Origin: a phage
DNA: 51,691 nucleotides
Sequence record: OZ346160.1
Direction: 5' to 3' (one strand)
Shown in pieces: positions 34,678 to 51,086 of this stretch. Each line of letters opens with the position of its first letter. The first letter of the stretch is position 1. The notes under the pieces were generated by a model that searched no databases, had not been told where the DNA came from, and saw only the letters and a list, made by a program, of their open reading frames with translations. A program made the translations under genes and the position numbers.

Positions 34678-34693
34678 TGCCTCCTTTATTTTT
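34662..34693. terminator. bidirectional terminator after spanin gene
   Basis: AGGAGGC-ttaat-GCCTCCT followed by TTTATTTTTAT; spanin stop codon lies in loop. Confidence 0.6.
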
Positions 34694-34916
34694 ATGCGTC
34701 GGGCCACATATGAGTTTCGTTTGTTGGCTTGTTCGATTCGTCGTACTGCCTTACTTCAATGCTGCAAGTGTCGCCGTACAGTTCTGCAATCTTGCGCTCA
34801 TTTTCAACCGCCGATTGCTCACTCCATCCAAAATCCCTGTCGTAAATTGTCGGTATTTCAGCAGAAGATCCGTTGTCATGATTATATACGCGAACTACTA
34901 AAAACTTGCTGGACAT
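34692..34916 (-). CDS. hypothetical protein
   Basis: 74-aa ORF downstream of cassette 34953..34997 on - strand. Confidence 0.45.
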   Translation of the reverse strand: MSSKFLVVRVYNHDNGSSAEIPTIYDRDFGWSEQSAVENERKIAELYGDTCSIEVRQYDESNKPTNETHMWPDA

Positions 34917-34952
34917 AATTTTACCTTTTGGTTGTTTCGTTTCGATGAAACA

Positions 34953-34997
34953 AATATACCCGACACTAGGCCGGGCGTTTTAACAAAAAATGCTATT
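34953..34997 (-). promoter_or_regulatory. cassette copy (near-identical inverted copy of 31735..31779)
   Basis: Reverse-complement AATAGCATTTTTTGTTAAAACGCCCGGCCTAGTGTCGGGTATATT. Confidence 0.55.
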
Positions 34998-35113
34998 CCA
35001 TACGCTTTACCGTAACCAGTAATACACCATCATCATTGCATAAAACATGTTCAGTGGTGCTAAAAGCGCGCATATCTGAATAAAGTAGCGTAAGTAAAGC
35101 ATGAATAAAATCC

Positions 35114-35509
35114 TCATGTGATATTGAATTTACGGCGCAGTGCTTCAAGATCTTGTCTATTAGCTTTTGCCTGGAACAATTCATCATCGCCCATCTCCCC
35201 TATTCTCGCCATATCCCTGATCCAGTCGTTGCGCATACCATCCAGGCTATACAATTCGAATCCGAAAGGCCGCTTTGACGATCCTTTGGACCAGTATTTT
35301 CCGCAGACCCCATCTATATAACCAGCCGTCATCATTCTTGCGCAAAATTCCTTAGATGCAAGGCTGGCGAACATTCGCGGCGTAAGTCCGGCGGCCCGTG
35401 CGAGCCGCTCGCATTCTCTATGCTGATAGATAAATTTGGCTATGTGCTGCCTGTTAAACCAGTCGTATGACTCACACCATTTATACAGATCAAGCAAAAA
35501 CATAATCAT
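35114..35509 (-). CDS. hypothetical protein
   Basis: 131 aa, translationally coupled (ATGA) to upstream NTPase gene. Confidence 0.45.
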   Translation of the reverse strand: MIMFLLDLYKWCESYDWFNRQHIAKFIYQHRECERLARAAGLTPRMFASLASKEFCARMMTAGYIDGVCGKYWSKGSSKRPFGFELYSLDGMRNDWIRDMARIGEMGDDELFQAKANRQDLEALRRKFNIT

Positions 35510-37086
35510 CCCAGCAGTATTGGATTGACAAAAATAACACCATTAATAACACAAACATAATTTCTTTCTTCCAGCATTGGCAGCAAGTGCCCTTCTATCC
35601 TCTTCATTACTCCAGCCTGACCAACGAAAGGTTTTACCTTTCTCGCTGATTCGTACAGGGCGCGGATATTCAGAATCCCTTTATTAGCCTTGCCGTGTCT
35701 AGTGATCAATTCAATCAATTTACCCATTTCAGCATCATCACCAGCATAACCAGAAGCATTGGCGGCGCTAATGTATGTTTTGCTCAATTCCTGAAACATG
35801 ATCAGCGCCTCTTGCATTGTTTCCACGTCGATCTCTTTCGACTTCTGCGGGTATCCGGCAGGATTAAACCAGTTGCGGATAACATGCAGGACGGAAGCAA
35901 GCCTGATCACCTGTTTATCCATTTTACCCAGCGCACCGCGTAACATTGTATGAGAATACTTTCCGCCGTCTGCAAGATGCGGTTCCATATCCTGGCGAGC
36001 AATGTTGAGCACTCGCATAGCTGAACGGCTTATTTTCAGCGATATATTTGATTCGCTCATGATGTTATGCACCAATTGATAATATTGGGCCTTCAATTCA
36101 GGATCCACTGCCTCATAGGTAGAATCACCATTTTCATCAATGAATGAGCGACGGCCTAAGAATGATTCCTCACGGACCAACAAAAAGCGCTCACTCACAC
36201 CGATACCGCGCGATCCAGCGTCCATGATTCCGCTTATCGTTTCATCCTGGGCTATAACGCTCATACATCCAAGTGCGCGAAAACTCATGTTATTGTCAGC
36301 ATTAGCACGGGCAATTGATACGTGACCATTATCCCACGCCTTAAGCACTAGCTCACTGTTAGTCTTCCTTTCGCTATTGGCATAGGTCAAGCCTAACAGA
36401 CTGTTAATACTTGTTGCTTCGTCAGATATTACGGCAAAGTTACCTTGCTTGTTGTTGATTTTTGCCAAGCCTTCTGGAGTTGTATCTGAAACAGGGAAAG
36501 TTATATCACACATCTTTTCCAGCTTCTCCTCCAGATCCTCTTTTTCCTGGTATAGAGATTCCATATCAGCGCCTGATCTTTCGCTTTTCATCTCCTTTGC
36601 AAGACCTGCCAACTTTGCCTGTATTTTCTTTCTTTCCTTGCGGCGTTGCTCGTTGATCTTCTCAACTTCCGCAATCATCGGAGCAATAGCCATACTATTG
36701 ATCGCAGATTTACCAGTTGACGGCGGCTGGCTTGTAACGACGTAAAGCGCAGTCGGCTGATCGGTCCCGTGATAGTCAACCGTAAAGCGTCCAAGCATAG
36801 CGGCAGAAATGCAGCCGATAAAGTGCATGTAAGCCGATGATTCAGGGAATTGAACGGATCGCGCAATACTTCGTGATAACTTTCCGACAACATCAATATC
36901 ATTACCAAGAGAAATGACGGGGTAGCGATCGTGACCGCTATTTACATCCTTTACGTCGCCCCAAAAGCTGGACGACTGGCGATAGCCGTTAGCCTGAATT
37001 GATACGCGAACTGGCGAAAGGTTCTGGCTTTCAGCCATAGCGATTATTTGCTGTGGAGTTAATTTGTTCGTTTCTAATGAAAACAT
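35506..37086 (-). CDS. P-loop NTPase of unknown function (DUF3987-like)
   Basis: 526 aa; Walker A-like QPPSTGKS; AGGAG RBS; own cassette upstream. Confidence 0.55.
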   Translation of the reverse strand: MFSLETNKLTPQQIIAMAESQNLSPVRVSIQANGYRQSSSFWGDVKDVNSGHDRYPVISLGNDIDVVGKLSRSIARSVQFPESSAYMHFIGCISAAMLGRFTVDYHGTDQPTALYVVTSQPPSTGKSAINSMAIAPMIAEVEKINEQRRKERKKIQAKLAGLAKEMKSERSGADMESLYQEKEDLEEKLEKMCDITFPVSDTTPEGLAKINNKQGNFAVISDEATSINSLLGLTYANSERKTNSELVLKAWDNGHVSIARANADNNMSFRALGCMSVIAQDETISGIMDAGSRGIGVSERFLLVREESFLGRRSFIDENGDSTYEAVDPELKAQYYQLVHNIMSESNISLKISRSAMRVLNIARQDMEPHLADGGKYSHTMLRGALGKMDKQVIRLASVLHVIRNWFNPAGYPQKSKEIDVETMQEALIMFQELSKTYISAANASGYAGDDAEMGKLIELITRHGKANKGILNIRALYESARKVKPFVGQAGVMKRIEGHLLPMLEERNYVCVINGVIFVNPILLG

Positions 37087-37114
37087 TCGTTAGCTTCTCC
37101 TTTGTGGGCCGTAA

Positions 37115-37159
37115 ATTTTAACGGCCCAATACTACCCCGTTTTGTCAAAAAGTGCTATT
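37115..37159 (-). promoter_or_regulatory. cassette copy (TTGACA variant) upstream of P-loop NTPase gene
   Basis: AATAGCACTTTTTGACAAAAC; hairpin GGGCCG..CGGCCC; TAAAAT at positions 40-45. Confidence 0.5.
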
Positions 37160-37376
37160 TGATCCGCTCTATTGCAACCAGAAGTCGATCAGGCTGGCGG
37201 TCGCTGTAGCATTCTCCTGTAATCCCATCCTTAAACGTAAAGTAAAGCGCCTTATGATATGAAAAACCAATCAGCCAACCTACCGCCGTTTTTTTGATGG
37301 GCCTGACTATATCGCCAGGCTTGAAAGTCTTTGTGGTAGAATGCGTTACTTTGTAACGGTTTTCACTGTTTATCAC
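37155..37376 (-). CDS. hypothetical protein
   Basis: 73-aa ORF coupled to upstream gene; stop inside cassette motif. Confidence 0.45.
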   Translation of the reverse strand: MINSENRYKVTHSTTKTFKPGDIVRPIKKTAVGWLIGFSYHKALYFTFKDGITGECYSDRQPDRLLVAIERIK

Positions 37377-37759
37377 AGATATTTGCCCTCAAACAGATAA
37401 CAGCCGCCAGCAGAGAATCCGACCTCTTCACGGTACAGGTTCCAGCGATCGCCGCACTCATCAAAAACATAACCCGCAACGCTTCCAAGCGGTCGCCCTT
37501 TCTCGATCTGGTATCGCTTGCCCTGCTTAAAGTGCTTTTTGCACGGCATGTTATGATCTACAAACGTGCAAAGAACGGTTTTTGTGTTAATGGCGCGGTA
37601 ATCATCTCGGTTTGCTGGAAGCCAGCGGCTACCCTTAACAAGCGTCTTAACCTGGAACTCTTCCACCTCGATCACATCATCACTTCCTGCAATCTTCTGA
37701 TAAACCGTTTTAAAACGTCCTTTCATCAATACGTTGGTTTCATTACAGATAACATTCAT
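37373..37759 (-). CDS. hypothetical protein (Cys/His-containing)
   Basis: 128 aa; cassette 37789..37833 upstream. Confidence 0.5.
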   Translation of the reverse strand: MNVICNETNVLMKGRFKTVYQKIAGSDDVIEVEEFQVKTLVKGSRWLPANRDDYRAINTKTVLCTFVDHNMPCKKHFKQGKRYQIEKGRPLGSVAGYVFDECGDRWNLYREEVGFSAGGCYLFEGKYL

Positions 37760-37788
37760 GATCAGATCTCCTTTGTTTGTTCGGTGTG

Positions 37789-37833
37789 ATTATGCCAGGT
37801 TTTTACACCTGGCTTTTAACAAAAAGTGCTATT
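37789..37833 (-). promoter_or_regulatory. cassette copy
   Basis: Consensus motif overlapping methyltransferase stop; hairpin CCAGG..CCTGG; CATAAT at 40-45. Confidence 0.55.
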
Positions 37834-38539
37834 TTGAGTTTGACTCAAAGACGGCGCGAGCAAATCCGCGCGGAGTGAGGGAGCGGATCATCTTTGTGCG
37901 CGATGACTTACCGCCAGTTTTGGCCCAGCCTGGATTATCTTTGTCTTCCTCTTTCGGCAGGATTAAAGCGCGCGGAGGAATAACAAAGCCGTTGCCAGTC
38001 CAGAGGCACGTTTTCTTAAAATAGCGATCCCGTGCCGGAATAATATCAGGGAAGTCGGGATGTTTATCATCTTCCGGCAGATAGCCAGCGTAATCGCACG
38101 GATGGAACGTATAATCAGGCTTTCGCCATAACGTTGACAACTTGCCAACCGGATTTTCGATCATGTAAGGAACACCGAAATAATCAGCTATATCAGCCGC
38201 GATTCTGCAAGTGTCGGCGGCCTCATCCTGGAAAGATGGATTCTCAAGGCGTTTTTTGGCCCAATGGCGAGATCCGCTATTTGCAAGGTCGGTGCATGGT
38301 GGGAAGGCCATAATAAAATCAGGATTGCCCCACTCATTATTGATTGCCTTAACATAAAAAGCATCGTCAATCCAGACGTTAACGTATTCGATATTCTCAT
38401 GCTGTATGCGCACTGACTGGTAATCACCGTGATCGCCGCCGTCAGCATTAAAGCAAATGCACTTATAGCCATTATCAGCCCAATCTTTAACGGCTTTACC
38501 AGATCCATCAAATAGGGAGAATATTAAACCTTTATACAT
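37829..38539 (-). CDS. DNA (cytosine-5)-methyltransferase
   Basis: Start at MYKGLIFSLFDGSG (motif I FxGxG); PC motif FPPCTDLA (catalytic Cys); ENV motif MIENPVG. Confidence 0.75.
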   Translation of the reverse strand: MYKGLIFSLFDGSGKAVKDWADNGYKCICFNADGGDHGDYQSVRIQHENIEYVNVWIDDAFYVKAINNEWGNPDFIMAFPPCTDLANSGSRHWAKKRLENPSFQDEAADTCRIAADIADYFGVPYMIENPVGKLSTLWRKPDYTFHPCDYAGYLPEDDKHPDFPDIIPARDRYFKKTCLWTGNGFVIPPRALILPKEEDKDNPGWAKTGGKSSRTKMIRSLTPRGFARAVFESNSK

Positions 38540-38549
38540 CGTAATTACC

Positions 38550-38774
38550 TCAAAACGGAAAACAGCGCGCACAACCAGGATCGAAATCGCATCCACAATC
38601 ATTAACAATCATAGTGGGATCTGCAAATATTGCGCTTGATTCAAGATCCATATCCATATCACCTAAAGCCTCATCAAGAGTCTTAATTTTATATGCCACT
38701 TCAAGCGCCGCCTCTTTATTTAGTCCGGCATCTTCTGCCATTTGAAGGCGTTCAAAAAATCCGTCTTGACTCAT
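38550..38774 (-). CDS. hypothetical acidic protein
   Basis: 74-aa ORF; C-terminal Cys cluster CGCDFDPGCARC. Confidence 0.45.
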   Translation of the reverse strand: MSQDGFFERLQMAEDAGLNKEAALEVAYKIKTLDEALGDMDMDLESSAIFADPTMIVNDCGCDFDPGCARCFPF

Positions 38775-38887
38775 CGCATAATCTCCTTAATAACAACCAA
38801 GATAATAGCCAGGCCAGCAGCAGTAACCAAAAAGCCAGCCGCGCCAATAATCGAATAAAAAAAGAAATCAATAGCTTTATCCATCAT
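38771..38887 (-). CDS. small single-pass membrane protein (38 aa, not in ORF track)
   Basis: Hand-translated MMDKAIDFFFYSIIGAAGFLVTAAGLAIILVVIKEIMR; GAGGTG RBS; stop overlaps next start (ATGA); coordinates approximate. Confidence 0.35.
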   Translation of the reverse strand: MMDKAIDFFFYSIIGAAGFLVTAAGLAIILVVIKEIMR

Positions 38888-38904
38888 TTTTCACCTCATT
38901 TAAA

Positions 38905-38930
38905 AGGCGGCAAAACGCCGCCAGATTAAT
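38905..38930 (-). terminator. terminator-like hairpin (- strand)
   Basis: On - strand GGCGGCG-ttttg-CCGCC followed by TTTTAAAT. Confidence 0.35.
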
Positions 38931-39157
38931 TAAAGAGCGCGCCAACTTTGAATATAGAAAGCGTTTTCTTCCAGTAATTCTTTTACCTGATCTTTATTGT
39001 ATTTGCGCACCTTACCGCCTGGATGGATACCAATAAGATAGCCGCCTTTGCCCTCGGTGATAGTGATTTGGCTAATTCCGCAGGACTTATCAAGTTTTAC
39101 AGCCACGCGGTGATGAGCGTCAATAGTTGCCATAATGTTTAAAACTTTTGCTTTCAT
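38930..39157 (-). CDS. hypothetical protein
   Basis: 75-aa ORF with GAGGA RBS. Confidence 0.45.
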   Translation of the reverse strand: MKAKVLNIMATIDAHHRVAVKLDKSCGISQITITEGKGGYLIGIHPGGKVRKYNKDQVKELLEENAFYIQSWRAL

Positions 39158-39265
39158 TTAAATATCCTCAATTGAAATATGAATGACGTGGCGCTCTTTT
39201 TCCGTCGCCGCCGTAATGGTCATTTGCAACCGCCACCATCCAAGCGTTTTTGAAAATAAATAGCC

Positions 39266-39478
39266 TCATTTCTTATTTTTCAGCTTAAATTTATGACCTG
39301 GAACACCAGCGCCAATATACCCATCGTTGTATTCCATTAAATAAAGGTGAAGACCATTATCTGAAATTACATGAGGATCTTCTTTGAGATTTCCCATTAG
39401 TGGATATTCTTTTCCGCGCGTAAATTTCCAAATTGAGTTATAAGTTTCTACGCATTTAAGTTTTAATTGCTTTGCCAT
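39266..39478 (-). CDS. hypothetical protein
   Basis: 70-aa ORF from track. Confidence 0.45.
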   Translation of the reverse strand: MAKQLKLKCVETYNSIWKFTRGKEYPLMGNLKEDPHVISDNGLHLYLMEYNDGYIGAGVPGHKFKLKNKK

Positions 39479-39759
39479 TATGCGATCCCAGTTACGTTAA
39501 AACTTACAGCCCTTGTTGCGCTAAATACATAAGCATCAACAGCGCCGCCAAATACACGAATTTTACCCTGGCCGTACTGCGCATTCATATTTCGCCAAAC
39601 CGTTCTATTAGAGCAGAATGCGCTACCAGTCTTAATAAGCGTATCCATCTCTTTTCTTAGATCGCGATAGTCAAGCCAGAATCTAAAGGCGCGCTGTTTA
39701 ATTCGCGCCGCCTTGATTTTTTCTCTTGCGCTATTGAAATCATTCTTTTCGTATGCCAT
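39478..39759 (-). CDS. hypothetical protein
   Basis: 93-aa ORF, coupled to neighbours. Confidence 0.45.
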   Translation of the reverse strand: MAYEKNDFNSAREKIKAARIKQRAFRFWLDYRDLRKEMDTLIKTGSAFCSNRTVWRNMNAQYGQGKIRVFGGAVDAYVFSATRAVSFNVTGIA

Positions 39760-39956
39760 TAAATGATCTCCATGTATGTTTCAAAGCCATTTAACTTGAA
39801 CAGGCCGTTTTCACATTTGCGCACGTTCCAAGTTAGCCCTGAGTGGTACGCCTCCATATCATCAAGGTCAATGGTGATTTCAGCACCTTTCTTAAACAAA
39901 CCTTTTTCGTGAGACTTGTCACGCTGTACAACTTTAACATCAACTTGATTTTCCAT
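39759..39956 (-). CDS. hypothetical protein
   Basis: 65-aa ORF directly downstream of cassette 39988..40032 with GAGGA RBS. Confidence 0.45.
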   Translation of the reverse strand: MENQVDVKVVQRDKSHEKGLFKKGAEITIDLDDMEAYHSGLTWNVRKCENGLFKLNGFETYMEII

Positions 39957-39987
39957 TTTTAAATCCTCGTTCGTTGTCGATGCGCTT

Positions 39988-40032
39988 AATATACCAATCA
40001 GAGGCGCATCGGTTTTAACAAAAAGTGCTATT
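39988..40032 (-). promoter_or_regulatory. cassette copy
   Basis: Consensus motif; hairpin CGATGCGC..GCGCATCG with TATATT in loop. Confidence 0.5.
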
Positions 40033-40309
40033 CAACAACAGATCCAGTTAAAGAGATAAGCCGTCTTGTGATCTTTCGTCTACGATACTTACGCGCAACA
40101 ACCGGAAGATTTTCACCGCTTTGATGCCCAAAAGTGATCGGCAACTCTTCTCCTCCAGACATACCGAACTCAGTGTGTGTTGGTTTGTTCCGCCACCCCT
40201 GGATAAAGCCGAAACGGTCACGAGTTATGTACCTGTAGTTGTTAGGTAGGGGCAATTGTATCCCCTCAAAATCCACTGTGTCGGTGTAGCTGTAAAACTT
40301 AGAACTCAT
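40028..40309 (-). CDS. hypothetical protein
   Basis: Start taken at MSSKFYSY (track gives longer 40028..40360 ORF); the shorter start avoids overlap with the cassette-driven small ORF upstream. Confidence 0.4.
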   Translation of the reverse strand: MSSKFYSYTDTVDFEGIQLPLPNNYRYITRDRFGFIQGWRNKPTHTEFGMSGGEELPITFGHQSGENLPVVARKYRRRKITRRLISLTGSVVE

Positions 40310-40451
40310 AGTCAACAACTCCAAACTCGTTAACGATTTGCGCCTTGTAGAATCCGCCATTTTTCGCCAGGTTGTAACAAGCGGCTACGGTTTCAAATTC
40401 GCGCGCTTCCGGCTGGCTGTTTTCGTGTTCCCAGGTAATCAGAGTAACCAT
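40299..40451 (-). CDS. hypothetical small protein (50 aa, not in ORF track)
   Basis: Hand-translated MVTLITWEHENSQPEAREFE...; GAGGA RBS and leader nearly identical to cassette 40015 leader; coordinates approximate. Confidence 0.35.
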   Translation of the reverse strand: MVTLITWEHENSQPEAREFETVAACYNLAKNGGFYKAQIVNEFGVVDYEF

Positions 40452-40484
40452 TTTCAAATCCTCGCATTCGTTGTCGATGCGTGT

Positions 40485-40529
40485 AATGTACAGGAATACG
40501 AGGATTTAGTTTTAACAAAAAGTGCTATT
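40485..40529 (-). promoter_or_regulatory. cassette copy
   Basis: Consensus motif overlapping stop of 40529..40792; leader nearly identical to 39988..40032 copy. Confidence 0.5.
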
Positions 40530-40792: not shown

Positions 40793-40799
40793 GGTTATT

Positions 40800-43808: not shown

Positions 43809-43823
43809 TTAGCAGGTGAATAA

Positions 43824-45045: not shown

Positions 45046-45075
45046 GGCCCTACTTTCAACGAGAGGGGAAACGCG

Positions 45076-45303
45076 ATGGAAAGTTTAATCATCCAGAAAA
45101 AAATGAAGTGTGTCAGTGTAGCGCCAGGTTGCGGTTTTATGTTCACAGTGGGGCATATCTACTCCGCGCAGAAAATGAGAACATCAACCGGATCGTTTTA
45201 CGTCAATAACAATCAAGGATTCCGCATGTTCCTGAACGGTCAAAACGGCAACGAAATTTGCGCTTACGCAGACATTATCGCAACCTTTGAGGAAGTGAAA
45301 TAA
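45076..45303 (+). CDS. hypothetical protein (paralogue pair A)
   Basis: Start MESLII with RBS; C-terminal half similar to next gene (FLNGQNGNEI.. vs YLNGENGTEI..). Confidence 0.45.
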   Translation: MESLIIQKKMKCVSVAPGCGFMFTVGHIYSAQKMRTSTGSFYVNNNQGFRMFLNGQNGNEICAYADIIATFEEVK

Positions 45304-45539
45304 TGATCATCGAAAACAACTTTCTTTGCGTTAAGAGCAATCGACCATTCTTCACGCCTGGCAAGGTGTACCAGGGCAAGAAGGACACAAGAGATGGTCA
45401 CTCTTATCATGTTCACTGCAACAACGGATACAAGTTTTACCTTAACGGCGAGAATGGAACTGAGATTGTTGCTTTTGAAAACGTAGTTGCTGAGTTTGAG
45501 CAGCTTACAGACGCTGAATTTGAGGAAGTGAAAGAATGA
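45303..45539 (+). CDS. hypothetical protein (paralogue pair B)
   Basis: 78 aa; similar to preceding gene; coupled starts. Confidence 0.45.
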   Translation: MIIENNFLCVKSNRPFFTPGKVYQGKKDTRDGHSYHVHCNNGYKFYLNGENGTEIVAFENVVAEFEQLTDAEFEEVKE

Positions 45540-45721
45540 TTGTCTACGTTGTGCATGGTGATATTTACTACGACGGAGAATACTTTGAGGGAGCTTTCAG
45601 CGAATTTGATAAGGCAGAACAGCACGCTGAGACGCTTACGGATTGTTACGACGAAGTAACAATACGCGAGATAAAACTTGATGATCCAACATATGATGGC
45701 GACAAATGGAACGTAAAATGA
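45536..45721 (+). CDS. hypothetical acidic protein
   Basis: 61-aa ORF coupled to neighbours. Confidence 0.4.
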   Translation: MIVYVVHGDIYYDGEYFEGAFSEFDKAEQHAETLTDCYDEVTIREIKLDDPTYDGDKWNVK

Positions 45722-46428
45722 AAAAATACACTTTCGAACTGTGGGGCAAAAAGTACGAATTAATCACCAGCAAGCCGATTGTTATCGTTGACCTGGACGG
45801 CACATTATCGGACGGATCGCATCGTTTGCATTTGCTGCCAACTGAAAACTTGCACCTTACGGAATCGTGGCGCGAGTTTAACAGGGCCGCCGCCGGAGAT
45901 TCACCGATTAAAAGCACTATCGCGGTTATTAACGGTTTATGGGTGTCGGGATTTGCCATCGTCATCTTGACCGGACGCAGCGACGAGGTTCGCTATGAAA
46001 CCTGCAAATGGTTGAATGAGAACGGCGTGAAGTTTGACGAAATCATCATGCGCCGCCAGGAGGACAACCGAAAGGATACGGTTATTAAAGAAGAAGCCTT
46101 GCGCGCTATTGGCCTGGACAACATTGTTTGCGCCTTTGACGATTCGCCTAACGTGGTTAAGCACTTCCGCAGCTTGGGGATCACAACCTATCAGGTCACG
46201 GAATACGACAAGCCACACGCTCACATACAATCTCACGGCGTGGAATCAATCAAGATCACGAAGCGCGCCCGATTCGTCGGCAGCAAAGACAGCCTGGTCA
46301 ATGCCAGTTTTACCAGAGGAATAGCCTATGACGTTGTTTCTTATCATGACAAGAGTTTTATAGTTCATGATGATTCTGGATGCGCCTGGTCATTCAATCA
46401 TAGTGACGGCGATTTTGTTAATGCGTAA
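45718..46428 (+). CDS. HAD-superfamily phosphatase (polynucleotide 3'-phosphatase-like)
   Basis: Start MKKYTF; HAD motif I VIVDLDGTL near N-terminus. Confidence 0.6.
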   Translation: MKKYTFELWGKKYELITSKPIVIVDLDGTLSDGSHRLHLLPTENLHLTESWREFNRAAAGDSPIKSTIAVINGLWVSGFAIVILTGRSDEVRYETCKWLNENGVKFDEIIMRRQEDNRKDTVIKEEALRAIGLDNIVCAFDDSPNVVKHFRSLGITTYQVTEYDKPHAHIQSHGVESIKITKRARFVGSKDSLVNASFTRGIAYDVVSYHDKSFIVHDDSGCAWSFNHSDGDFVNA

Positions 46429-46471
46429 TAGCACTTTTTGTTAAAACATCTCAACGGGCTTGCGGTATAGT
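46427..46471 (+). promoter_or_regulatory. cassette copy
   Basis: Consensus motif after stop; hairpin GGGCTT..AAGCCC with TATAGT in loop (46466..46471). Confidence 0.5.
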
Positions 46472-46502
46472 AAGCCCATCAACAACAAACGAGGATTAAA
46501 TC

Positions 46503-46766
46503 ATGGCTAACAAGATCGAGTTTTTTAAAGCGGTAGACATTATTGATGGCGCGCCTAGCTTCTTTGCGATCCATTCTATTGACGGCAAGGATATTGGGTA
46601 CAACGTTATCCGTCGAGATGGAATATCAAAACTTAGTGACCTGGTAGGCCATATTGTGTCAATCGGGAAATGCGCATGGCCCGATTCGCCACGAGAGCCG
46701 CGCCGCCGCGACATGATTAATCCTGAATTGCTTTACACGCTGGTAGTAGAGGGAGAAAATAAATGA
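46503..46766 (+). CDS. hypothetical protein
   Basis: 87-aa ORF downstream of cassette. Confidence 0.45.
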   Translation: MANKIEFFKAVDIIDGAPSFFAIHSIDGKDIGYNVIRRDGISKLSDLVGHIVSIGKCAWPDSPREPRRRDMINPELLYTLVVEGENK

Positions 46767-46948
46767 TTTGGTTACTTGCTTTTTTGGTTGTTTTTCTTTA
46801 CATTTCAGGCTTGTTTACGTTCCGCGCGTTGGTGAAATATTCTGACGCGACAGACAAAGACGATAAAATCGTTCTCGCTTTCTGGTTTGTTTGGGTGTGG
46901 TTAGCAATTTACGAGATCATCAGAGACAAACAGAAATTTGAGTGGTGA
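46763..46948 (+). CDS. small membrane protein (two predicted TM segments)
   Basis: 61 aa, hydrophobic stretches LLAFLVVFLYISGLF and IVLAFWFVWVWLAIY. Confidence 0.4.
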   Translation: MIWLLAFLVVFLYISGLFTFRALVKYSDATDKDDKIVLAFWFVWVWLAIYEIIRDKQKFEW

Positions 46949-47158
46949 TTCTTGCTATGGCGCATTCATGCAGTGCGCCATGTTGAGAAAACCTAAAGGG
47001 GGAAATGATGCGTAACTTTGAAAAATCATTACCAAAAAGAAGCGTCGCGGATACGATGAGCATGTAGAGTTTGTGAACAAGCAACGCAAGAAGCGCAACG
47101 AAGACAAGAAGCGTGGGAAAAAATTTAATGCGATTTTTCGCTATGGAGATCATTAATC

Positions 47159-47749
47159 ATGAAACGAGACATTATCATCCTTAATGGGCCGCCAGGTTGC
47201 GGGAAGGACACTATTGCAGCTTACCTAACTGGCCATCGTTACCCTGCCGTCAAGGCGTCATTCAAACAGCCGATGTTCGATATTGCTTTTTCTATGCTGG
47301 GCGTGTACCGATACGATGAATTTATGGACCTGTACAACGACCGAGAGCAAAAAGAAAAGCCTCAAGTTATCTTGGGCGGCAAGTCACCTCGACAATTCAT
47401 GATCTGGATTAGCGAGGACGTAATGAAGCCAGTTTTTGGGGATCACTATTTCGGGCGTCGAATGGTTGAAGAGATTCACGAGATGTACCGAGATTTGGCG
47501 GTTGTGATCAGTGATGGCGGATTCCCCGAAGAAATCAAGCCGCTGGTTAAGGCAGGGCATGAAGTGCATATTTGCCGATTGCATCGCGACGGCTTCACGT
47601 TTGCTGGCGATTCGAGAGACTACATTGACCTGAGCGGTTATCACTATCGAATCCACCACTATGATTTCCACTTGCAGGACGGCAAGCCAGATCTGGCTGT
47701 AAACGAGATCGTCAATACGGTCAAATGGAAGCACACACAGATTAAATAG
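47159..47749 (+). CDS. P-loop nucleotide/polynucleotide kinase (putative)
   Basis: 196 aa; Walker A ILNGPPGCGKDT at N-terminus; same array as HAD phosphatase. Confidence 0.55.
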   Translation: MKRDIIILNGPPGCGKDTIAAYLTGHRYPAVKASFKQPMFDIAFSMLGVYRYDEFMDLYNDREQKEKPQVILGGKSPRQFMIWISEDVMKPVFGDHYFGRRMVEEIHEMYRDLAVVISDGGFPEEIKPLVKAGHEVHICRLHRDGFTFAGDSRDYIDLSGYHYRIHHYDFHLQDGKPDLAVNEIVNTVKWKHTQIK

Positions 47750-47789
47750 CACGAATTGCTAAACGCGGGGTTATCGGCCCCGCTATAAT
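47745..47789 (+). promoter_or_regulatory. cassette copy (GAATTGCTAAAC variant)
   Basis: Motif overlapping stop TAG; hairpin GCGGGG..CCCCGC; TATAAT 47784..47789. Confidence 0.55.
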
Positions 47790-47819
47790 GCTCACATCAA
47801 CAATCAAGAGGAAATCACA

Positions 47820-48200
47820 ATGGTTAACATTCGAAAAATCCGCGTCGGCACTAAATTCTTAGTTACTTACGCAATTCCAGATAGCGGAATGAAGAAGGGC
47901 CAGATTGTTAAGGTTGATAGCAAAAGGTTCGGAATCCCTGGTATCAATGGCTATCTAATCAATAGAGATCTTGGATTCGACGGCTTCGCTATCCGTGCGC
48001 TTGAGGGTATTGTTGCCACTCTTAAACGAATCACTAATCATCGCGGCTGCCCAATCAAGACGATTAAAGCGCCAGTAAATTACGGCAAACTGGATAATCG
48101 TCGAATCCGCCGCCTGGCGCGTAACGCGTTAAAATTCCGTGGCGTAGGCGATGATTTCTACTATGGATACAAGAGGATTGCGCGCAATGCTGGGAAATAA
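47820..48200 (+). CDS. hypothetical basic protein
   Basis: 126-aa ORF downstream of cassette. Confidence 0.45.
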   Translation: MVNIRKIRVGTKFLVTYAIPDSGMKKGQIVKVDSKRFGIPGINGYLINRDLGFDGFAIRALEGIVATLKRITNHRGCPIKTIKAPVNYGKLDNRRIRRLARNALKFRGVGDDFYYGYKRIARNAGK

Positions 48201-48299
48201 CAATAACGCAACGAATCCTAAGCCACCTTTTGATTTTCATTCCGCAATGATTGCGGTATTATCAATGCTACTTTTTCTTTATAGCATGAGGGCGCTACT

Positions 48300-48548
48300 A
48301 TGGTTTTTAACGCATTGAAACGAATGTTTAAGCCGGAATACCGGATCGTATTTTGCCGCGACTGTTCTACTTATCATGTGCAGCGACGCAGCTTAGGCGG
48401 CAATTGGCACTATGTTACAGACGACTTTTTCGGCATCATTGCCACTGAATTTAAGTATTACAGTGATGCTTATATGTACGTGAAGAAGCGCCACCGCTTA
48501 CGCAAGTGTCGTTTTTCCGTGCTGATTCACGTTAATGATTGTTACTGA
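48300..48548 (+). CDS. hypothetical protein (Cys-containing)
   Basis: 82-aa ORF. Confidence 0.4.
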   Translation: MVFNALKRMFKPEYRIVFCRDCSTYHVQRRSLGGNWHYVTDDFFGIIATEFKYYSDAYMYVKKRHRLRKCRFSVLIHVNDCY

Positions 48549-48738
48549 GGTGAAAATGAAAACTGGTATTATTATTCTTTTCCTGATCCTTTTCGGTAGC
48601 CATTTAACCATTAACTATGAGGGCATTATGGCCTTTTGGGGCAACTTGATGATTTTTGCCGCTGGTTCAATTACTGGCTACTCTGACGGGAAAAAGGACG
48701 GCGTTCGCAAGATGCTGATGGGACTTAAACAAAAATAA
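48535..48738 (+). CDS. small membrane protein
   Basis: 67 aa with hydrophobic segments; true start may be the internal MKTG. Confidence 0.35.
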   Translation: MIVTEVKMKTGIIILFLILFGSHLTINYEGIMAFWGNLMIFAAGSITGYSDGKKDGVRKMLMGLKQK

Positions 48739-48749
48739 GGGGATCTGAA

Positions 48750-49040
48750 ATGGCAAACAAAACTTACCGCAAACTACTGGTTAACGCTTTTGAAAACATC
48801 GCGCAGTCTAACAAGTGGAACGACTCTAAACACTCGCCAGTCACAATGAAGCGCGCCGGATTCAAAAATGCTCGTTCATGGGCGCGAGCTTTCGCAGCTT
48901 GCTATATGCCGGATGGTGGGCTAGGAACGATGAACGATTTTTTGATCAACATGATAGAGGAAGCGGCGCGAGAGGATCGACCGCTGACACAGCGAGATTT
49001 TGACGACTTCGCGCGCGATGAGCTTTACTATCTGAGCTAA
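48750..49040 (+). CDS. hypothetical protein
   Basis: 96-aa ORF; stop embedded in cassette motif. Confidence 0.45.
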   Translation: MANKTYRKLLVNAFENIAQSNKWNDSKHSPVTMKRAGFKNARSWARAFAACYMPDGGLGTMNDFLINMIEEAAREDRPLTQRDFDDFARDELYYLS

Positions 49041-49083
49041 TAGCACTTTTTGTTAAAACTTCCGCAAGGGCATTTGATAAAGT
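49039..49083 (+). promoter_or_regulatory. cassette copy
   Basis: Consensus motif after stop TAA; hairpin AAGGGCA..TGCCCTT with GATAAA in loop. Confidence 0.5.
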
Positions 49084-49115
49084 GCCCTTATTGAAGCGAA
49101 ACAGAGGAAAGCGCA

Positions 49116-49328
49116 ATGAAAATCAAAATCACCAAAATCGACACCATCAACGGCGACGGATCAATCACTCTTGAGCAATGCGGTTTGGTTGTTGGTGATG
49201 TGCTGGAGGTTGACGGTCATTTCAGCGACGGATCTTATTGTGTTATTGCGCCGCGTAACAGCGAGTTTATCAAGGCTGGCGACAATATTAGTGTTAACCA
49301 TGACGAATGCGAGGTAGTAGAAGAATGA
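49116..49328 (+). CDS. hypothetical protein
   Basis: 70-aa ORF downstream of cassette. Confidence 0.4.
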   Translation: MKIKITKIDTINGDGSITLEQCGLVVGDVLEVDGHFSDGSYCVIAPRNSEFIKAGDNISVNHDECEVVEE

Positions 49329-49588
49329 TCACGATTAACCTGTCAGAGCAGCAAGCGCGCATTATGTTAGCGGCCTTTGGCTGGCGAGATGATGACGGCA
49401 TCCAGGCAACGGTTAAAATTCCTGAGCAAGTGGCGCGTGAAGTTTTCAGCCAGCTAGAACACGCATTTGATCCTGCTGGGACTGAGCAAGCGGAAACTGC
49501 CGCATGGTTCGGAGAGAACGGATACAGAGATCAGCAAGTCGAAAACTGGAAGCGCATAAACGAGACTATGGAGGAATCAGGTTTATGA
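49325..49588 (+). CDS. hypothetical protein
   Basis: Start MITINL overlapping previous stop (ATGA). Confidence 0.4.
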   Translation: MITINLSEQQARIMLAAFGWRDDDGIQATVKIPEQVAREVFSQLEHAFDPAGTEQAETAAWFGENGYRDQQVENWKRINETMEESGL

Positions 49589-49899
49589 TTTACATTCACT
49601 ACTACCAAATCGGAACTAACGAGAACAAAAAAGAGCATCGTTTCATCCACGATGATTTGGACAAGGCAAAGGCCCAGCAACAGGTTTTAGGCGGCGTCAT
49701 TCAGGCTTTTGAGCCTGTAGAAGATATTGAGTACCGCGAGCATTTAAAAGATGTTGTTATTGATGAGATCTCTTGCTTGATTGATGATATGACAAATCAC
49801 GGCCCTGGTTCCCCGTGGGAAGACGCAGGATCTGTAACGTGGGACAAGGCCAAAATTAAGACGCTAAACAACTTTCGAGAGATTCTCGACGGTTTTTAA
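49585..49899 (+). CDS. hypothetical protein
   Basis: Start MIYIHYY with GAGGA RBS, coupled to previous gene. Confidence 0.4.
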   Translation: MIYIHYYQIGTNENKKEHRFIHDDLDKAKAQQQVLGGVIQAFEPVEDIEYREHLKDVVIDEISCLIDDMTNHGPGSPWEDAGSVTWDKAKIKTLNNFREILDGF

Positions 49900-49969
49900 T
49901 TAAAAACTCATAGCCGTTAGAGCGCCTCAATCGCATTCTAACGAGCTATTTTTCTGGTAAGGTGATTTA

Positions 49970-50098
49970 ATGGATGAGTACAAACAACCTTCGCAGTGGT
50001 GCAAAGAGAAGCAAGAAGAGGCACTGGAGCGCGGAGATGTGGAAGAAGCTATGAACTATTTCAAACTTGCGGAAGAATGGAAGGGGAGAGGATACTGA
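49970..50098 (+). CDS. hypothetical small protein (42 aa, not in ORF track)
   Basis: Hand-translated MDEYKQPSQWCKEKQEEALERGD...; AAGGTGA RBS; stop overlaps next start. Confidence 0.3.
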   Translation: MDEYKQPSQWCKEKQEEALERGDVEEAMNYFKLAEEWKGRGY

Positions 50099-50328
50099 TG
50101 TTCGGCATGAATGAGGCGCAATTCAACGCAGCTAAACGCCAGGCTAAAAAGTGCGGCGAGGCGATGAAAGCGGATGTGGAAAAGCGCGGGAAGTATGTTG
50201 ATGAAGTAATGAAGGGCATCATTGCAGAACACTACCAGCCAATCGCGCCAATGTTGACGATCACTCAATTCATTTGGCTGTGTGGTTACTTGCGCGGACG
50301 TTGGGGGAACGCTTTCGACAGGGAATGA
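50098..50328 (+). CDS. hypothetical protein
   Basis: Start MFGMNEAQ with GGGGAGAGG RBS (track 49996..50328). Confidence 0.4.
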   Translation: MFGMNEAQFNAAKRQAKKCGEAMKADVEKRGKYVDEVMKGIIAEHYQPIAPMLTITQFIWLCGYLRGRWGNAFDRE

Positions 50329-50489
50329 TTGACAACTCTTTCCTGATTGGTTAGCATGGCGTCGTTTACATAAGAGCGGCTTAGTCCGAACGCGTGACGC
50401 GATAGTCACACAACAACGGCGATATGCAGGAGGTTTTTGCATTGCAAAATAATCCGTAAGACGTATCGCCTTTTTAATGGGGATCCAAA

Positions 50490-50723
50490 ATGATTAAATA
50501 CAAATTAACCGTTTCTTTCCGTGATACCGTTATTCATCCTTTCCTCAAGAGCTTTGTTAAATGCTTTACGGTAGAAGTTACAGAGGATCAGCTAGACGGT
50601 GACGAAACTTGCATTTCTATCGGCAATGTTGCTTATCCGATTCACAACATTACCAGCATTAAGCGTGAGGTTGTCGCTGATGAATTACAAAGTAAAGATG
50701 ACGATCCGGCGAATGGGGCGTAA
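50490..50723 (+). CDS. hypothetical protein
   Basis: 77-aa ORF. Confidence 0.4.
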   Translation: MIKYKLTVSFRDTVIHPFLKSFVKCFTVEVTEDQLDGDETCISIGNVAYPIHNITSIKREVVADELQSKDDDPANGA

Positions 50724-50865
50724 TTGCCAATCATGCAAACAGGAATATGAATGCGTAGTTGATGCTCTTGATGAACTGGAAGCAGTAGCAAAAGCAAAAG
50801 AGCAATCGGGCGCTAATCCTGAAACACATCAATTTTCAATTAACCTTGTGAGGGCTTTACAATGA
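50680..50865 (+). CDS. hypothetical protein (Cys-containing)
   Basis: Start ambiguous (50680/50698/50713) within track ORF 50599..50865; overlaps previous gene. Confidence 0.3.
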   Translation: MNYKVKMTIRRMGRNCQSCKQEYECVVDALDELEAVAKAKEQSGANPETHQFSINLVRALQ

Positions 50866-51086
50866 TCGCATTATCTTTCTGCATTGGTTTTATCATGGCT
50901 ATCATTATCTTTTCCGTTGTCATGCGCTTTGCTTATAAGTTCGTGATTAATAAAGGTTGGTACGCTTCTGCCATCTGGAGCGAAAAACAAAAGAAATGGC
51001 TTGTCCGTGGTCAATACCTGATGATCGGTAGCAAGATCCTAAATTCCATTCGAGCCAAAGATGGGAAAGTAAAATATACAGCTTAA
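50862..51086 (+). CDS. small membrane protein
   Basis: 74 aa with N-terminal TM segment; strong terminator downstream. Confidence 0.4.
   Translation: MIALSFCIGFIMAIIIFSVVMRFAYKFVINKGWYASAIWSEKQKKWLVRGQYLMIGSKILNSIRAKDGKVKYTA

What the first reader, a model, noticed from the sequence alone, without database searches (positions are those of the whole stretch)
34692..51086. About 45 small cassette-driven genes of unknown function form two long early arrays
The - strand array 34692..42136 and + strand array 42817..51086 consist mostly of 50-130-aa ORFs, tightly coupled, each group preceded by a cassette copy. Such arrays in virulent phages are enriched for host-takeover and anti-defence proteins. 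Notable members: tandem paralogues 45076..45539, an internally duplicated 297-aa protein (44109..45002), and Cys-cluster proteins (38550..38774, 48300..48548).
Basis: inference. Interest (0 to 1): 0.55.

Follow-up and report, generated by a model that had tools for sequence, protein, structure and literature searches.

The report
Swappable small-gene arrays, T1-like phage
The two arrays are real: they are the accessory, probably early, arms of a T1-like coliphage genome, about 47 mostly tiny genes grouped behind a repeated promoter-plus-hairpin cassette at which several gene blocks have been gained, lost or swapped, but what most of the genes do, anti-defence included, is still unproven.

Summary
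The window is a complete Warwickvirus genome (Drexlerviridae, T1-like), about 97% identical to NorthRox, FritzSarasin/Bas04 and SECphi27. There are 22 genes on the minus strand (34692-42136) and 25 on the plus strand (42817-51086), median 76 aa. Differences from relatives pile up at third codon positions (488/363/2095), so the ORFs are real genes. Thirteen of about 17 transcription groups start with an ~80-nt cassette: ATAGCAC...TAAAAC box, 18-nt spacer, -10, CATCGAAACGA leader, SD.

The box is already published as the TLS/T1 21-nt repeat. What I add is that the cassette behaves like the PeSL (promoter-early stem-loop) elements of RB49/phi1. It carries a stem-loop in the same positions, shares their -10-to-ATG leader, flanks blocks that differ between close relatives, and M2 is 65% identical to phi1 ORF194.

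P6/P7 are paralogues (36% identity), and their model best matches Gp54, the CapRel trigger, of which M9 is a true homologue. P5's duplication is partial. M15's four cysteines are invariant; P15's are not. Five genes have recognisable functions. No protein matches a known anti-defence family, and restriction-site depletion can explain the restriction resistance reported for close relative Bas04. The anti-defence reading is therefore plausible but untested. Interest is moderate.

The parts
34692..42136 (-). Leftward array, 22 genes M22..M1. Includes M19 helicase 35506-37086, M16 Dcm-like methyltransferase 37829-38539, M9 Gp54 homologue 39759-39956.
42817..51086 (+). Rightward array, 25 genes P1..P25. 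Includes P9 PNK-type phosphatase 45706-46428 and P12 dNMP kinase 47159-47749.
42137..42221 (-). Cassette heading M1 (box 42201-42221). Its -10-to-ATG part matches the phi1 PeSL at 33 of 49 positions.
41755..41834 (-). Cassette heading M2-M6, with a hairpin across the -10.
40452..40529 (-). Cassette heading M7-M8.
39957..40032 (-). Cassette heading M9-M13. It is the equivalent of the 75-nt intergenic cassette upstream of Bas11 gene 54.
37760..37833 (-). Cassette heading M17-M18, with a hairpin in the spacer.
37087..37159 (-). Cassette heading M19 (helicase), M20 and M21.
34917..34997 (-). Cassette heading M22. Its spacer hairpin plus T-rich tail also scores as terminator-like.
43546..43622 (+). 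Cassette heading P3-P4 (hairpin z -5.8).
44009..44108 (+). Cassette heading P5 alone.
45002..45075 (+). Cassette of the GAA type (box middle GAA instead of TTT) heading P6-P9.
46427..46502 (+). Cassette heading P10-P12. It is duplicated around an extra ~300-nt module in JLBYU26 (L002).
47745..47819 (+). Degenerate GAA-type cassette heading P13-P17. The stop codon of P12 lies inside TAAATAGCAC.
49039..49115 (+). Cassette heading P18-P20.
42760..42788 (+). Near-consensus sigma-70 promoter (TTGACA-17-GATAAT) for P1-P2. There is no cassette here.
41834..42136 (-). M1, 100 aa. This one-gene unit lies between two cassettes and is absent from all 8 close relatives examined.
41482..41754 (-). M2, 90 aa, 65% identical to ORF194 of the T4-like phage phi1.
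40028..40451 (-). M7 (DUF7170) and M8. This cassette-bounded module is absent in L006 and L009 and replaced by a different module in L001 and L007.
39759..39956 (-). M9, a PF25180 Gp54-family protein, 54% identical to PDB 9axb.
39266..39478 (-). M11, 70 aa, a possible distant paralogue of P6/P7 (hhalign E 6e-4, probability 29%).
38550..38774 (-). M15, 74 aa, acidic, with an invariant C-x-C-x5-C-x2-C cluster. In the matches whose annotation was shown it usually abuts the methyltransferase gene.
44109..45002 (+). P5, 297 aa: a phrog_7116 core (residues 109-297) plus an extra N-terminal copy of its first ~55-aa module.
45076..45539 (+). P6 and P7, tandem paralogues. The P7 model is a six-strand small beta-barrel whose best match is Gp54.
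48300..48548 (+). P15, 82 aa, basic. Its cysteines are not conserved in homologues.
43278..43550 (+). P2, 90 aa, with a lipoprotein signal (LTGC lipobox) and a sub-threshold DUF4884 match.
34665..34687 (.). Bidirectional terminator-like hairpin closing the leftward array against the lysis genes.
51092..51109 (+). Terminator-like hairpin closing the rightward array, upstream of the terminase small subunit gene.

Best explanation
The region is the pair of divergently transcribed accessory arms of a Warwickvirus (T1-like) genome. Its 47 genes are packed into about 17 short operons. Thirteen of these start with a composite regulatory cassette of ~75-100 nt: the 21-nt box AATAGCACTTTTTGTTAAAAC, an 18-nt spacer, a -10 hexamer (YATAAT-like), a conserved transcribed leader CATCGAAACGA, and a Shine-Dalgarno sequence.

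The cassette acts as a promoter read by the host RNA polymerase without phage factors. Its GC-rich stem-loop, which lies in the spacer, across the -10 or just downstream, probably attenuates or stabilises read-through transcripts. That role is inferred.

Because the cassette is repeated in direct orientation, it also provides patches of homology at which cassette-plus-gene modules are deleted, inserted and exchanged. This is the behaviour described for PeSL elements of T4-like phages RB49 and phi1. A second mode of change is gene-precise deletion at the 7-8-nt stop/start junction TAATGGC.

The cargo falls into two classes. A conserved minority serves DNA and nucleotide metabolism: helicase, Dcm-like methyltransferase with its Cys-cluster partner M15, PNK-type phosphatase and dNMP kinase. 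The majority are small, dispensable, patchily distributed proteins drawn from a pool shared with unrelated coliphages. Their most likely role is host interaction, meaning takeover, counter-defence or superinfection exclusion. That part is inference.
For: Identity of the genome.

Promoter function:
- The -10 lies at a fixed 18 nt from the box (17 in one copy). The box starts 73-100 nt upstream of the ATG.
- In Bas11 the 75-nt gap upstream of gene 54 is entirely this cassette.
- Zhang et al. isolated CapRel escape mutants 'immediately upstream' of gene 54. These lowered Gp54 expression from the native promoter cloned in pBR322, in uninfected cells (PMC11578894).

Stem-loops: 12 of 13 array cassettes fold with z between -2 and -5.8. 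The positions match those described for PeSLs (PMC2839356).

Shared leader with phi1 PeSLs:
- The phi1 and window sequences align from the -10 to the ATG.
- The match is 33/49 ungapped, against a background mean of 12.7 and a 99.99th percentile of 25. The two best hits in the whole window are both cassettes.

Module exchange:
- The M1 unit is absent from all 8 relatives, where the two flanking cassettes collapse into one with a 67-nt overlap.
- M7-M8 are absent in L006 and L009, and L001 and L007 carry a 649-nt stretch there that does not align to the window, bounded by cassettes on both sides.
- JLBYU26 (L002) carries an extra ~300-nt module between two copies of the 46427 cassette.
- Ten of 32 breakpoints lie in cassettes.
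- The M1 unit occurs at 99.7% identity only in the records of three other phages (tunus, SLUR29, XY3), and at 77% in 23 more distant records, Rogue1-like phages among them.

Shared gene pool: M2 is 65% identical to phi1 ORF194, which lies inside the ORF190-195 PeSL mini-circle cluster. M7 is 62% identical to ORFs of ~165-kb coliphages.

Real genes: third-position excess in substitutions.

Dispensability: deletions covering gene 54 and neighbouring genes are viable in Bas11.

Against: - The -35 region is not canonical. TTGTTA lies 22 nt from the -10 and TTAAAA 19 nt, so what the ATAGCAC box does is unresolved (PMC11447400).
- The enrichment of breakpoints in cassettes (p 3.6e-5) uses a uniform null. 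If viable indels can only end at gene boundaries, cassettes hold 13 of ~47 boundaries (28%) and 10 of 32 breakpoints (31%), which is no enrichment. The case for recombination at cassettes therefore rests on the three two-sided events.
- No transcript maps or time courses exist for any T1-like phage in the library searched.
- No function was obtained for about 40 proteins.
- The Gp54 fold match is a small beta-barrel with 9% identity and no profile signal.
- Terminator activity of the stem-loops and mini-circle formation were not tested.
Confidence: 0.65

Rival explanations
1. The ATAGCAC box is mainly a binding site for a phage or host regulator (operator, 'stoperator' or activator site) that times expression. 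The cassettes are then temporal control elements, and their role in gene exchange is incidental.
For: - The box is far more conserved than a -35 or UP element needs to be, and it lacks a canonical -35 at 17 nt.
- The TLS authors raise stoperator, enhancer and UP-element readings (PMC11447400).
- The 5' half of the box (AAATAGCA) sits inside the spacer of the only consensus sigma-70 promoter, at 42760-42788, a position suited to repression.
- Box variants with TTT, GAA or A-rich middles exist.
Against: - The Bas11 cassette drives detectable expression from a plasmid in uninfected cells, so no phage factor is required for basal activity.
- No DNA-binding regulator was recognised among the array proteins.
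Confidence: 0.3
2. The small genes mainly support replication, nucleotide supply and shut-off of the host, which is classical early-gene housekeeping, rather than counter-defence. Their variability reflects relaxed need, not an arms race.
For: - The recognisable members are a helicase, a methyltransferase, a PNK-type phosphatase and a dNMP kinase.
- T1 and TLS degrade host DNA by unidentified early products (PMC11447400).
- Many small genes are near-invariant in all 8 relatives, for example M17, M18, M20, P14 and P22.
- Restriction-site depletion already accounts for escape from restriction.
- No anti-defence homology was found.
Against: - Patchy presence of M1, P6-P8, M7-M8 and P1-P2 among phages about 97% identical.
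- Sharing of ORFs with unrelated phages of the same hosts.
- Gp54 is dispensable in the laboratory yet is sensed by a defence protein.
Confidence: 0.3
3. The resemblance to PeSLs is convergence. Any strong early promoter followed by a good leader will look similar, and indels end in cassettes only because those are the tolerated intergenic sites.
For: - Under a null restricted to gene boundaries there is no enrichment (28% against 31%).
- The upstream halves differ: an AT-rich tract plus TTGACA in phi1 against the ATAGCAC box here.
- Other deletions use 7-8-nt junction microhomology, not cassettes.
Against: - The leader identity (CATCGAAACGAGAT, then CACTTA..CAAACAATG) goes beyond -10 and SD requirements.
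- Three events have cassettes on both flanks, collapsing in one phage or the other to overlapping copies of 20-69 nt.
- An ORF from the very phi1 mini-circle cluster is present here.
Confidence: 0.25

Closest known systems
PeSL (promoter-early stem-loop) cassettes of T4-like phages RB49, phi1, PST and nt-1 (Arbiol et al. 2010, PMC2839356; Comeau et al. 2014, PMC4122927)
   Same: - A repeated intergenic promoter, stem-loop and SD unit that begins at the stop codon of the upstream gene.
- Stem-loops between -35 and -10, across the -10 or just downstream.
- Concentration in regions full of small non-essential ORFs.
- Modules bounded by two copies differ between close relatives.
- The -10-to-ATG leader is nearly the same sequence, and at least two ORFs (M2, M7) are shared with large T4-like coliphages, M2 with phi1 itself.
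   Different: - The host phage is a 51.7-kb T1-like siphovirus, not a T4-like myovirus.
- The upstream half is the ATAGCAC...TAAAAC box with no canonical -35, instead of an AT-rich tract plus TTGACA.
- Copies also precede replication and recombination genes.
- Terminator activity and mini-circles are untested here.
The 21-nt direct repeat aaATAGCACnnnTTGnTAAAA of phage TLS, also noted in T1, Rtp and Rogue1 (PMC11447400)
   Same: Same box, same orientation with transcription, and the same ~76-nt distance to start codons (73-100 nt here). The variant classes are also the same, with TTT, GAA or A-rich middles.
   Different: That paper left the function open (stoperator, enhancer or UP element). 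It did not describe the -10, leader and stem-loop as one unit, nor a role in module exchange.
Gp54 of phage Bas11, a trigger of the CapRel-SJ46 defence protein (Zhang et al. 2024, PMC11578894; PDB 9axb)
   Different: M9 has V7 and A25 where Bas11 Gp54 has A7 and I25. In Bas11 Gp54 the substitutions A7V and I25V each largely abolish triggering, and the SECphi27, Bas5, Bas8 and Bas10 homologues do not trigger. P6/P7 show no sequence relationship to Gp54. The natural function of Gp54 is unknown.
Early accessory regions of other virulent coliphages (T7 class I genes, T5 pre-early genes, T4 hyperplastic regions)
   Same: Dense runs of small, mostly dispensable genes read by the host polymerase. In those phages they include host-takeover and anti-defence proteins. 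This comparison rests on general knowledge, not on a test made here.
   Different: No member here has a demonstrated takeover or anti-defence activity, and the timing of expression has not been measured.

Membership tests
PeSL-type regulatory cassette | Repeated intergenic motif containing sigma-70-type promoter elements followed by an SD and a start codon | tested here: met
   A -10 hexamer lies at a fixed distance from the box, followed by an SD and ATG, in 13 array copies. A -35 consensus is absent, so the promoter part is atypical. Promoter activity is supported by the Bas11 data.
PeSL-type regulatory cassette | Stable stem-loop within or next to the promoter (spacer, over the -10, or downstream) | tested here: met
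   12 of 13 array cassettes, z -2.0 to -5.8 against shuffles. The positions match those listed in PMC2839356.
PeSL-type regulatory cassette | Insertions, deletions and replacements between close relatives are bounded by the motif | tested here: inconclusive
   Three two-sided events with cassettes on both flanks, and 10 of 32 breakpoints in cassettes. The enrichment vanishes under a null restricted to gene boundaries, and other deletions use junction microhomology.
PeSL-type regulatory cassette | Stem-loop terminates or attenuates upstream transcription; mini-circles form by recombination between copies | not testable with these tools
   Needs transcript mapping and inverse PCR on infected cells.
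PeSL-type regulatory cassette | Sequence homology to the RB49/phi1 elements | tested here: inconclusive
   The -10-to-ATG segment matches at 33/49 and 30/49 ungapped for two cassettes, and CATCGAAACGA is shared. The upstream half is unrelated.
TLS/T1 21-nt direct repeat | Consensus aaATAGCACnnnTTGnTAAAA, intergenic, co-oriented with transcription, ~76 nt upstream of start codons | tested here: met
   17 matches at up to 3 mismatches. All array copies are co-oriented and 73-100 nt from the ATG. The consensus is quoted from PMC11447400.
Gp54 family (PF25180) - M9 | Full-length match above the Pfam gathering score and similarity to the solved Gp54 | tested here: met
   125.1 bits against a cut-off of 27, profile positions 1-65 of 65. 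E 5.9e-17 to 9axb; 54% identity to Bas11 Gp54.
CapRel-SJ46 trigger (functional subset of Gp54) | A7 and I25, which are needed for activation by Bas11 Gp54 | tested here: not met
   M9 has V7 and A25 (alignment). In Bas11 Gp54 the A7V and I25V substitutions each largely abolish activation.
Gp54-like fold - P6/P7 | Structural superposition on the Gp54 beta-barrel | tested here: met
Known anti-defence proteins (those with solved structures or curated models) | Detectable sequence similarity to a characterised inhibitor | tested here: not met
   No hit for 42 small proteins against PDB sequences, none in NCBIfam and none of that kind in Pfam. A fold test was possible for P7 only.
C5-cytosine methyltransferase - M16 | Family profile match plus motif I (FxGxG) and motif IV (PC) | tested here: inconclusive
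   phrog_757 'DNA methyltransferase' at E 8.5e-85. LFDGSG and FPPC are visible in the sequence. No Pfam match at E up to 0.1.

The most novel reading that the evidence does not exclude
The Warwickvirus cassettes are true homologues of the RB49/phi1 PeSLs. Together they would form a cross-family exchange system in which promoter-leader-ORF modules move between T1-like siphoviruses and T4-like myoviruses that infect the same hosts. The arrays would then hold an expanded family of Gp54-fold small beta-barrels (M9, P6, P7, perhaps M11) that act as inhibitors or decoys of host immunity.
Probability: 0.3. Interest if true: 0.65.

Novelty: new member of a known kind. Interest (0 to 1): 0.4.

Why it matters
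T1-like phages are common, widely used in current phage-defence research (SECphi27, the BASEL phages) and candidates for therapy, yet more than half of their genes have no known role. If these genes sit in promoter-bounded, swappable modules, that gives a concrete rule for where accessory genes enter and leave these genomes. It also gives a natural unit for deletion and transplant screens: one cassette plus its genes. Finally it offers a short list of the most mobile modules (M1, M7-M8, P6-P8, P1-P2) as first candidates for counter-defence tests. The shared leader with PeSLs of T4-like phages hints that unrelated virulent phages draw on one pool of small genes.

Tried and rejected
- **P5 structure.** AlphaFold2 on a 20-sequence alignment (85-95% identity) gave pLDDT 39 and was unusable. 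A profile of 19 diverse family members found nothing in the PDB.
- **Homologue searches.** P5 returned only near-identical sequences in the 120 listed. P7 returned 7 clusters and P1 returned 2, so no deep alignments could be built. The two multi-repeat hits P0148 and P0154 look like translated repetitive DNA and were ignored.
- **Related loci.** The search for related loci with P1 gave only 2 loci, so I used annotated GenBank relatives instead.
- **Family libraries.** Pfam gave only DUFs apart from Gp54, the helicase and the phosphatase. PHROGs were almost all 'unknown function'. NCBIfam and PADLOC gave no hits. A PDB sequence search of 42 concatenated small proteins found nothing.
- **RNA.** Rfam and tRNA scans were empty.
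- **Literature.** I found no transcriptome of a T1-like phage and no follow-up on why Bas04 and Bas05 resist restriction. SECphi27 Gp77, the RAZR trigger, is the recombination protein outside the arrays and is not relevant here.
- **Rejected as evidence.** The Bas04 restriction-resistance phenotype does not argue for anti-restriction genes, because the genome is strongly depleted of the relevant sites.
- **Rejected readings.** M15 is not an N-terminal fragment of the methyltransferase, since motif I lies at the start of M16. The 132-aa reading of M5 looks out of frame; the 70-aa form matches the relatives.

Full report
**What the window is.** The region 34692-51086 matches 380 phage records. 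The best are Warwickvirus members (Drexlerviridae, Tempevirinae) at 96-98% identity over 82-96% of its length: NorthRox, MikeNSara, vB_EcoS-95, tonijn, FritzSarasin/Bas04 and SECphi27. The window starts at the terminase large-subunit ATG and ends in the small-subunit gene, so it is a whole 51.7-kb T1-like genome. The finding covers its last third.

**Checking the observation.** Median length is 76 aa. 36 genes are 50-130 aa, 4 are shorter, and 7 are longer than 130 aa.

These are real genes. Over 8 close relatives, substitutions fall 488/363/2095 on codon positions 1/2/3. The pattern holds for individual tiny genes, for example P3 1/1/35, P18 1/0/33 and P21 0/0/16.

Intergenic distances fall into two groups. 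29 of 45 are at most 15 nt or overlapping. 12 are 68-79 nt and one is 99 nt. Apart from the 70-nt P20-P21 gap, these gaps are the cassettes.

**The cassette.** The box AATAGCACTTTTTGTTAAAAC occurs 17 times at up to 3 mismatches, against 0.01 expected. Read in context, each array copy has the same layout: box, 18 nt (17 in one copy), a -10-like hexamer (CATAAT, TATAAT, TATAGT, TACATT), about 7 nt, CATCGAAACGA or a close variant, then GAGG/AGGAG and the ATG. The box starts 73-100 nt upstream of the ATG.

Thirteen groups in the arrays begin this way. Four do not:
- P1-P2 use the only near-consensus sigma-70 promoter, TTGACA-17-GATAAT at 42760-42788.
- P23-P25 follow TTGACA-17-TAGCAT.
- P21-P22 and M14-M16 have no box.

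Nine further copies lie outside the arrays. They include copies upstream of the portal gene, upstream of a 665-aa ORF and upstream of the 250-aa ORF at 30722-31474, which I take to be the counterpart of SECphi27's recombination protein Gp77. The box is therefore not a marker of these arrays alone.

**What is already published.** The reannotation of phage TLS describes exactly this 21-nt repeat (aaATAGCACnnnTTGnTAAAA). It reports 18 intergenic copies, about 76 nt upstream of start codons, also seen in T1, Rtp and Rogue1. It leaves the function open: stoperator, enhancer site or UP element (PMC11447400).

Functional evidence comes from Zhang et al. 2024. Bas11 mutants that escape CapRel-SJ46 include two with changes 'immediately upstream' of gene 54. 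These lower Gp54 expression from the native promoter cloned in pBR322 (PMC11578894). I fetched that locus. The 75-nt gap between bas11_0055 and bas11_0054 is nothing but this cassette. The cassette is therefore a promoter that works with host polymerase alone. Its -35 region is atypical (TTAAAA at 19 nt, TTGTTA at 22 nt), so the precise role of the box remains open.

**Stem-loops and the PeSL parallel.** Twelve of the 13 array cassettes contain a GC-rich stem-loop, with z -2.0 to -5.8 against shuffles. It sits in the spacer (37813, 43546, 47745, 34977), across the -10 (40012, 41814, 45002, 46427, 49039) or just downstream (37139, 44009). These are the positions listed for the promoter-early stem-loops (PeSLs) of the T4-like phages RB49 and phi1. 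Those elements are sigma-70-type early promoters joined to stem-loops that terminate transcription. They are concentrated in hyperplastic regions full of small non-essential ORFs, and they mediate modular shuffling and mini-circle formation (PMC2839356; PMC4122927).

**Module exchange.** I aligned the window to 8 Warwickvirus relatives.
- The M1 unit (320 nt) is missing from all 8. The subject sequence overlaps by 67 nt at the junction, so two cassettes collapse into one.
- The M7-M8 unit (477 nt) is missing in brachmannus (L006) and KMB46 (L009), with a 20-nt cassette overlap. In FritzSarasin (L001) and SECphi27 (L007) a 649-nt stretch that does not align to the window lies there, flanked by cassettes.
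- JLBYU26 (L002) carries an extra ~300-nt unit between two copies of the 46427 cassette.
- The P6-P8 block is replaced in most relatives. Its left edge is at the 45002 cassette.

Ten of 32 distinct breakpoints lie in the 6.9% of sequence occupied by cassettes (p 3.6e-5). That null is generous. If indels can only end at gene boundaries, cassettes make up 13 of ~47 boundaries (28%) and hold 31% of breakpoints, which is no enrichment.

Other deletions (M10, M11) are gene-precise and use the 7-8-nt junction TAATGGC. The case for cassette recombination therefore rests on the three two-sided events.

The M1 unit occurs at 99.7% identity only in the records of tunus, SLUR29 and XY3. It occurs at 77% in 23 more distant records, Rogue1-like phages among them.

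**A shared pool with T4-like phages.** M2 has 65%-identical homologues in phi1 and other ~165-kb coliphages, and 51-53% homologues in ~145-150-kb coliphages, one of them annotated by similarity to phi92 gp242. The phi1 homologue is ORF194. It lies in the ORF190-195 cluster in which Arbiol et al. demonstrated PeSL mini-circles. M7 (DUF7170) has 62%-identical homologues in ~165-kb coliphages.

The phi1 PeSLs upstream of ORF190, 194 and 198 read TTGACA-17-TAnAAT-ACACCCATCGAAACGAGATACCACTTAGGAGAATCAAACAATG. From the -10 to the ATG this is the window's cassette (alignment). The M1 cassette matches at 33/49 ungapped and the P3 cassette at 30/49. The background mean is 12.7 and the 99.99th percentile is 25. 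These are the two best matches in the whole window. The upstream halves are unrelated. Homology of the downstream half is likely but not proven.

**Gene content.**
- *Recognisable genes:* M19 DUF3987 / phrog 'DNA helicase', M16 phrog 'DNA methyltransferase' (motifs FDGSG and PPC visible, no Pfam hit), P9 HAD_PNKP phosphatase, P12 dNMP kinase, and M9 PF25180 'phage antiviral trigger protein Gp54'.
- *DUF families only:* M7, P1, P3, P8, P19 and P25. P2 has a lipobox.
- *Likely membrane proteins:* M14, P11, P14, P16 and P25 have a membrane-span-like segment.
- *No known relatives:* 42 small proteins have no relative among PDB sequences, and no NCBIfam or PADLOC match.

M9 is 54% identical to Bas11 Gp54. 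It carries V7 and A25 where Bas11 has A7 and I25. A7V and I25V each largely abolish CapRel activation by Bas11 Gp54, and the homologues from SECphi27, Bas5, Bas8 and Bas10 are not triggers. M9 is therefore probably not sensed by that CapRel allele. Gp54 is dispensable, and its own function is unknown.

- *P5.* The family is small, 43 clusters at 50% identity. Most members are ~175 aa and correspond to residues 109-297. P5 and P0146 carry an extra N-terminal copy of the first ~55-aa module (MLxLxDIxYPITF...EYFIxxHN). The duplication is real but partial. The structure prediction failed.
- *M15.* It is acidic (16 D+E against 5 K+R). Its four cysteines are invariant in Webervirus and Tlsvirus homologues. 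In several matches whose annotation was shown, the gene abuts or overlaps the methyltransferase gene, down to 44% identity in Klebsiella phage Alina. It may be a partner or regulator of the methyltransferase, or a DNA mimic. That is untested.
- *P15.* Its cysteines are not conserved.

**The anti-defence reading.**
- *For it:* the genes are dispensable, patchily distributed and shared with unrelated phages of the same hosts, and there is a Gp54 family member plus two Gp54-fold paralogues.
- *Against it, or neutral:* there is no homology to any characterised inhibitor.

The one phenotype that looked supportive is that Bas04, 97% identical to the window, is 'highly resistant' to restriction systems that cripple most Drexlerviridae, for 'unknown' reasons (PMC8594841). 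Site depletion has a simpler claim on that result:

| Site | Observed | Expected |
|---|---|---|
| EcoKI | 0 | 6.3 |
| EcoRV | 0 | 10.5 |
| EcoRI | 2 | 20.9 |
| HindIII | 0 | 23.6 |
| PstI | 1 | 11.6 |
| EcoP1I | 24 | 51 |

'Early' timing is also an inference. It rests on the host-polymerase promoters, the PeSL analogy and the gene content. No T1-like transcriptome was found.

**Verdict.** The thing itself is known: the region is annotated in dozens of genomes, and the repeat is published. What appears to be new is the recognition that the repeat is one part of a PeSL-like promoter, stem-loop and leader cassette. That cassette bounds exchangeable gene modules in a T1-like siphovirus, and it shares its leader and some cargo with the original PeSL phages. 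The Gp54-like fold of P6/P7 also appears to be new. I file this as a new member of a known kind, of moderate interest. The functions of about 40 proteins remain open.

Noticed in passing
window 42222-42816: The ~600-nt divergent gap between the arrays is AT-rich and has no convincing ORF. It carries GATAACAA/TTGTTATC motifs in both orientations, three copies of (T/A)GTATCTATAT, and a 24-nt imperfect inverted repeat (42406-42429 with 42735-42758). It could be an origin or a regulatory region. Its right part, together with P1, has no high-identity match in L001, L002, L007 and L009.
   Followed up: partly
window 42760-42788: The spacer of the only near-consensus sigma-70 promoter contains AAATAGCA, the 5' half of the cassette box. 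If the box binds a regulator, this promoter would be repressed where the cassettes are activated.
   Followed up: no
whole window: Restriction sites are strongly depleted (EcoKI 0, EcoRV 0, HindIII 0, PstI 1, EcoRI 2). CCWGG is 2.3-fold over-represented (126 against 54) and GATC 1.7-fold (310 against 187), in a phage that encodes a Dcm-like methyltransferase.
   Followed up: partly
window 1565, 6394(-), 10144(-), 16019, 21365(-), 26613, 28175, 30664, 31735: Cassette-box copies lie outside the arrays. Those at 28175, 30664 and 31735 have the full promoter layout, upstream of genes in the replication and recombination part of the genome. The 1565 copy (A-rich variant) is followed by a terminator-like hairpin upstream of the portal gene and has a different geometry.
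   Followed up: partly
window 46949-47158: Relative to 8 relatives the window lacks 197-240 nt between P11 and P12, which is one or two small genes. A 20-codon ORF with a strong SD remains at about 47006.
   Followed up: partly
window 34993-35187 and 35114-35509: M21 overlaps M20 by 74 nt in another frame, yet M21 shows a coding-like substitution pattern (3/1/15). This is either a true overlapping gene pair or a shorter M21 (35007-35102, as annotated in NorthRox).
   Followed up: no
window 49900-49969: The 70-nt gap upstream of P21 has the length of a cassette and a hairpin (GTTAGA...TCTAAC) but no ATAGCAC box and no clear -10. It may be a decayed cassette or a plain terminator.
   Followed up: no
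GenBank records matched: About 20 records named 'Campylobacter phage', with Campylobacter jejuni as host (e.g. MG065687 A136), match this E. coli Warwickvirus at up to ~97% protein identity. The host labels are probably wrong or the samples contaminated.
   Followed up: no
window 37829-38539: M16, the Dcm-like methyltransferase, matches phrog_757 strongly (E 8.5e-85) but no Pfam model at E up to 0.1, although C5-methyltransferase motifs I and IV are visible. It looks like a divergent subfamily.
   Followed up: no
window 39474-39482 and 39750-39758: Gene-precise deletions of M10 or M11 in relatives end at the repeated stop/start junction TAATGGC. This microhomology route of gene loss is distinct from cassette recombination.
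   Followed up: partly
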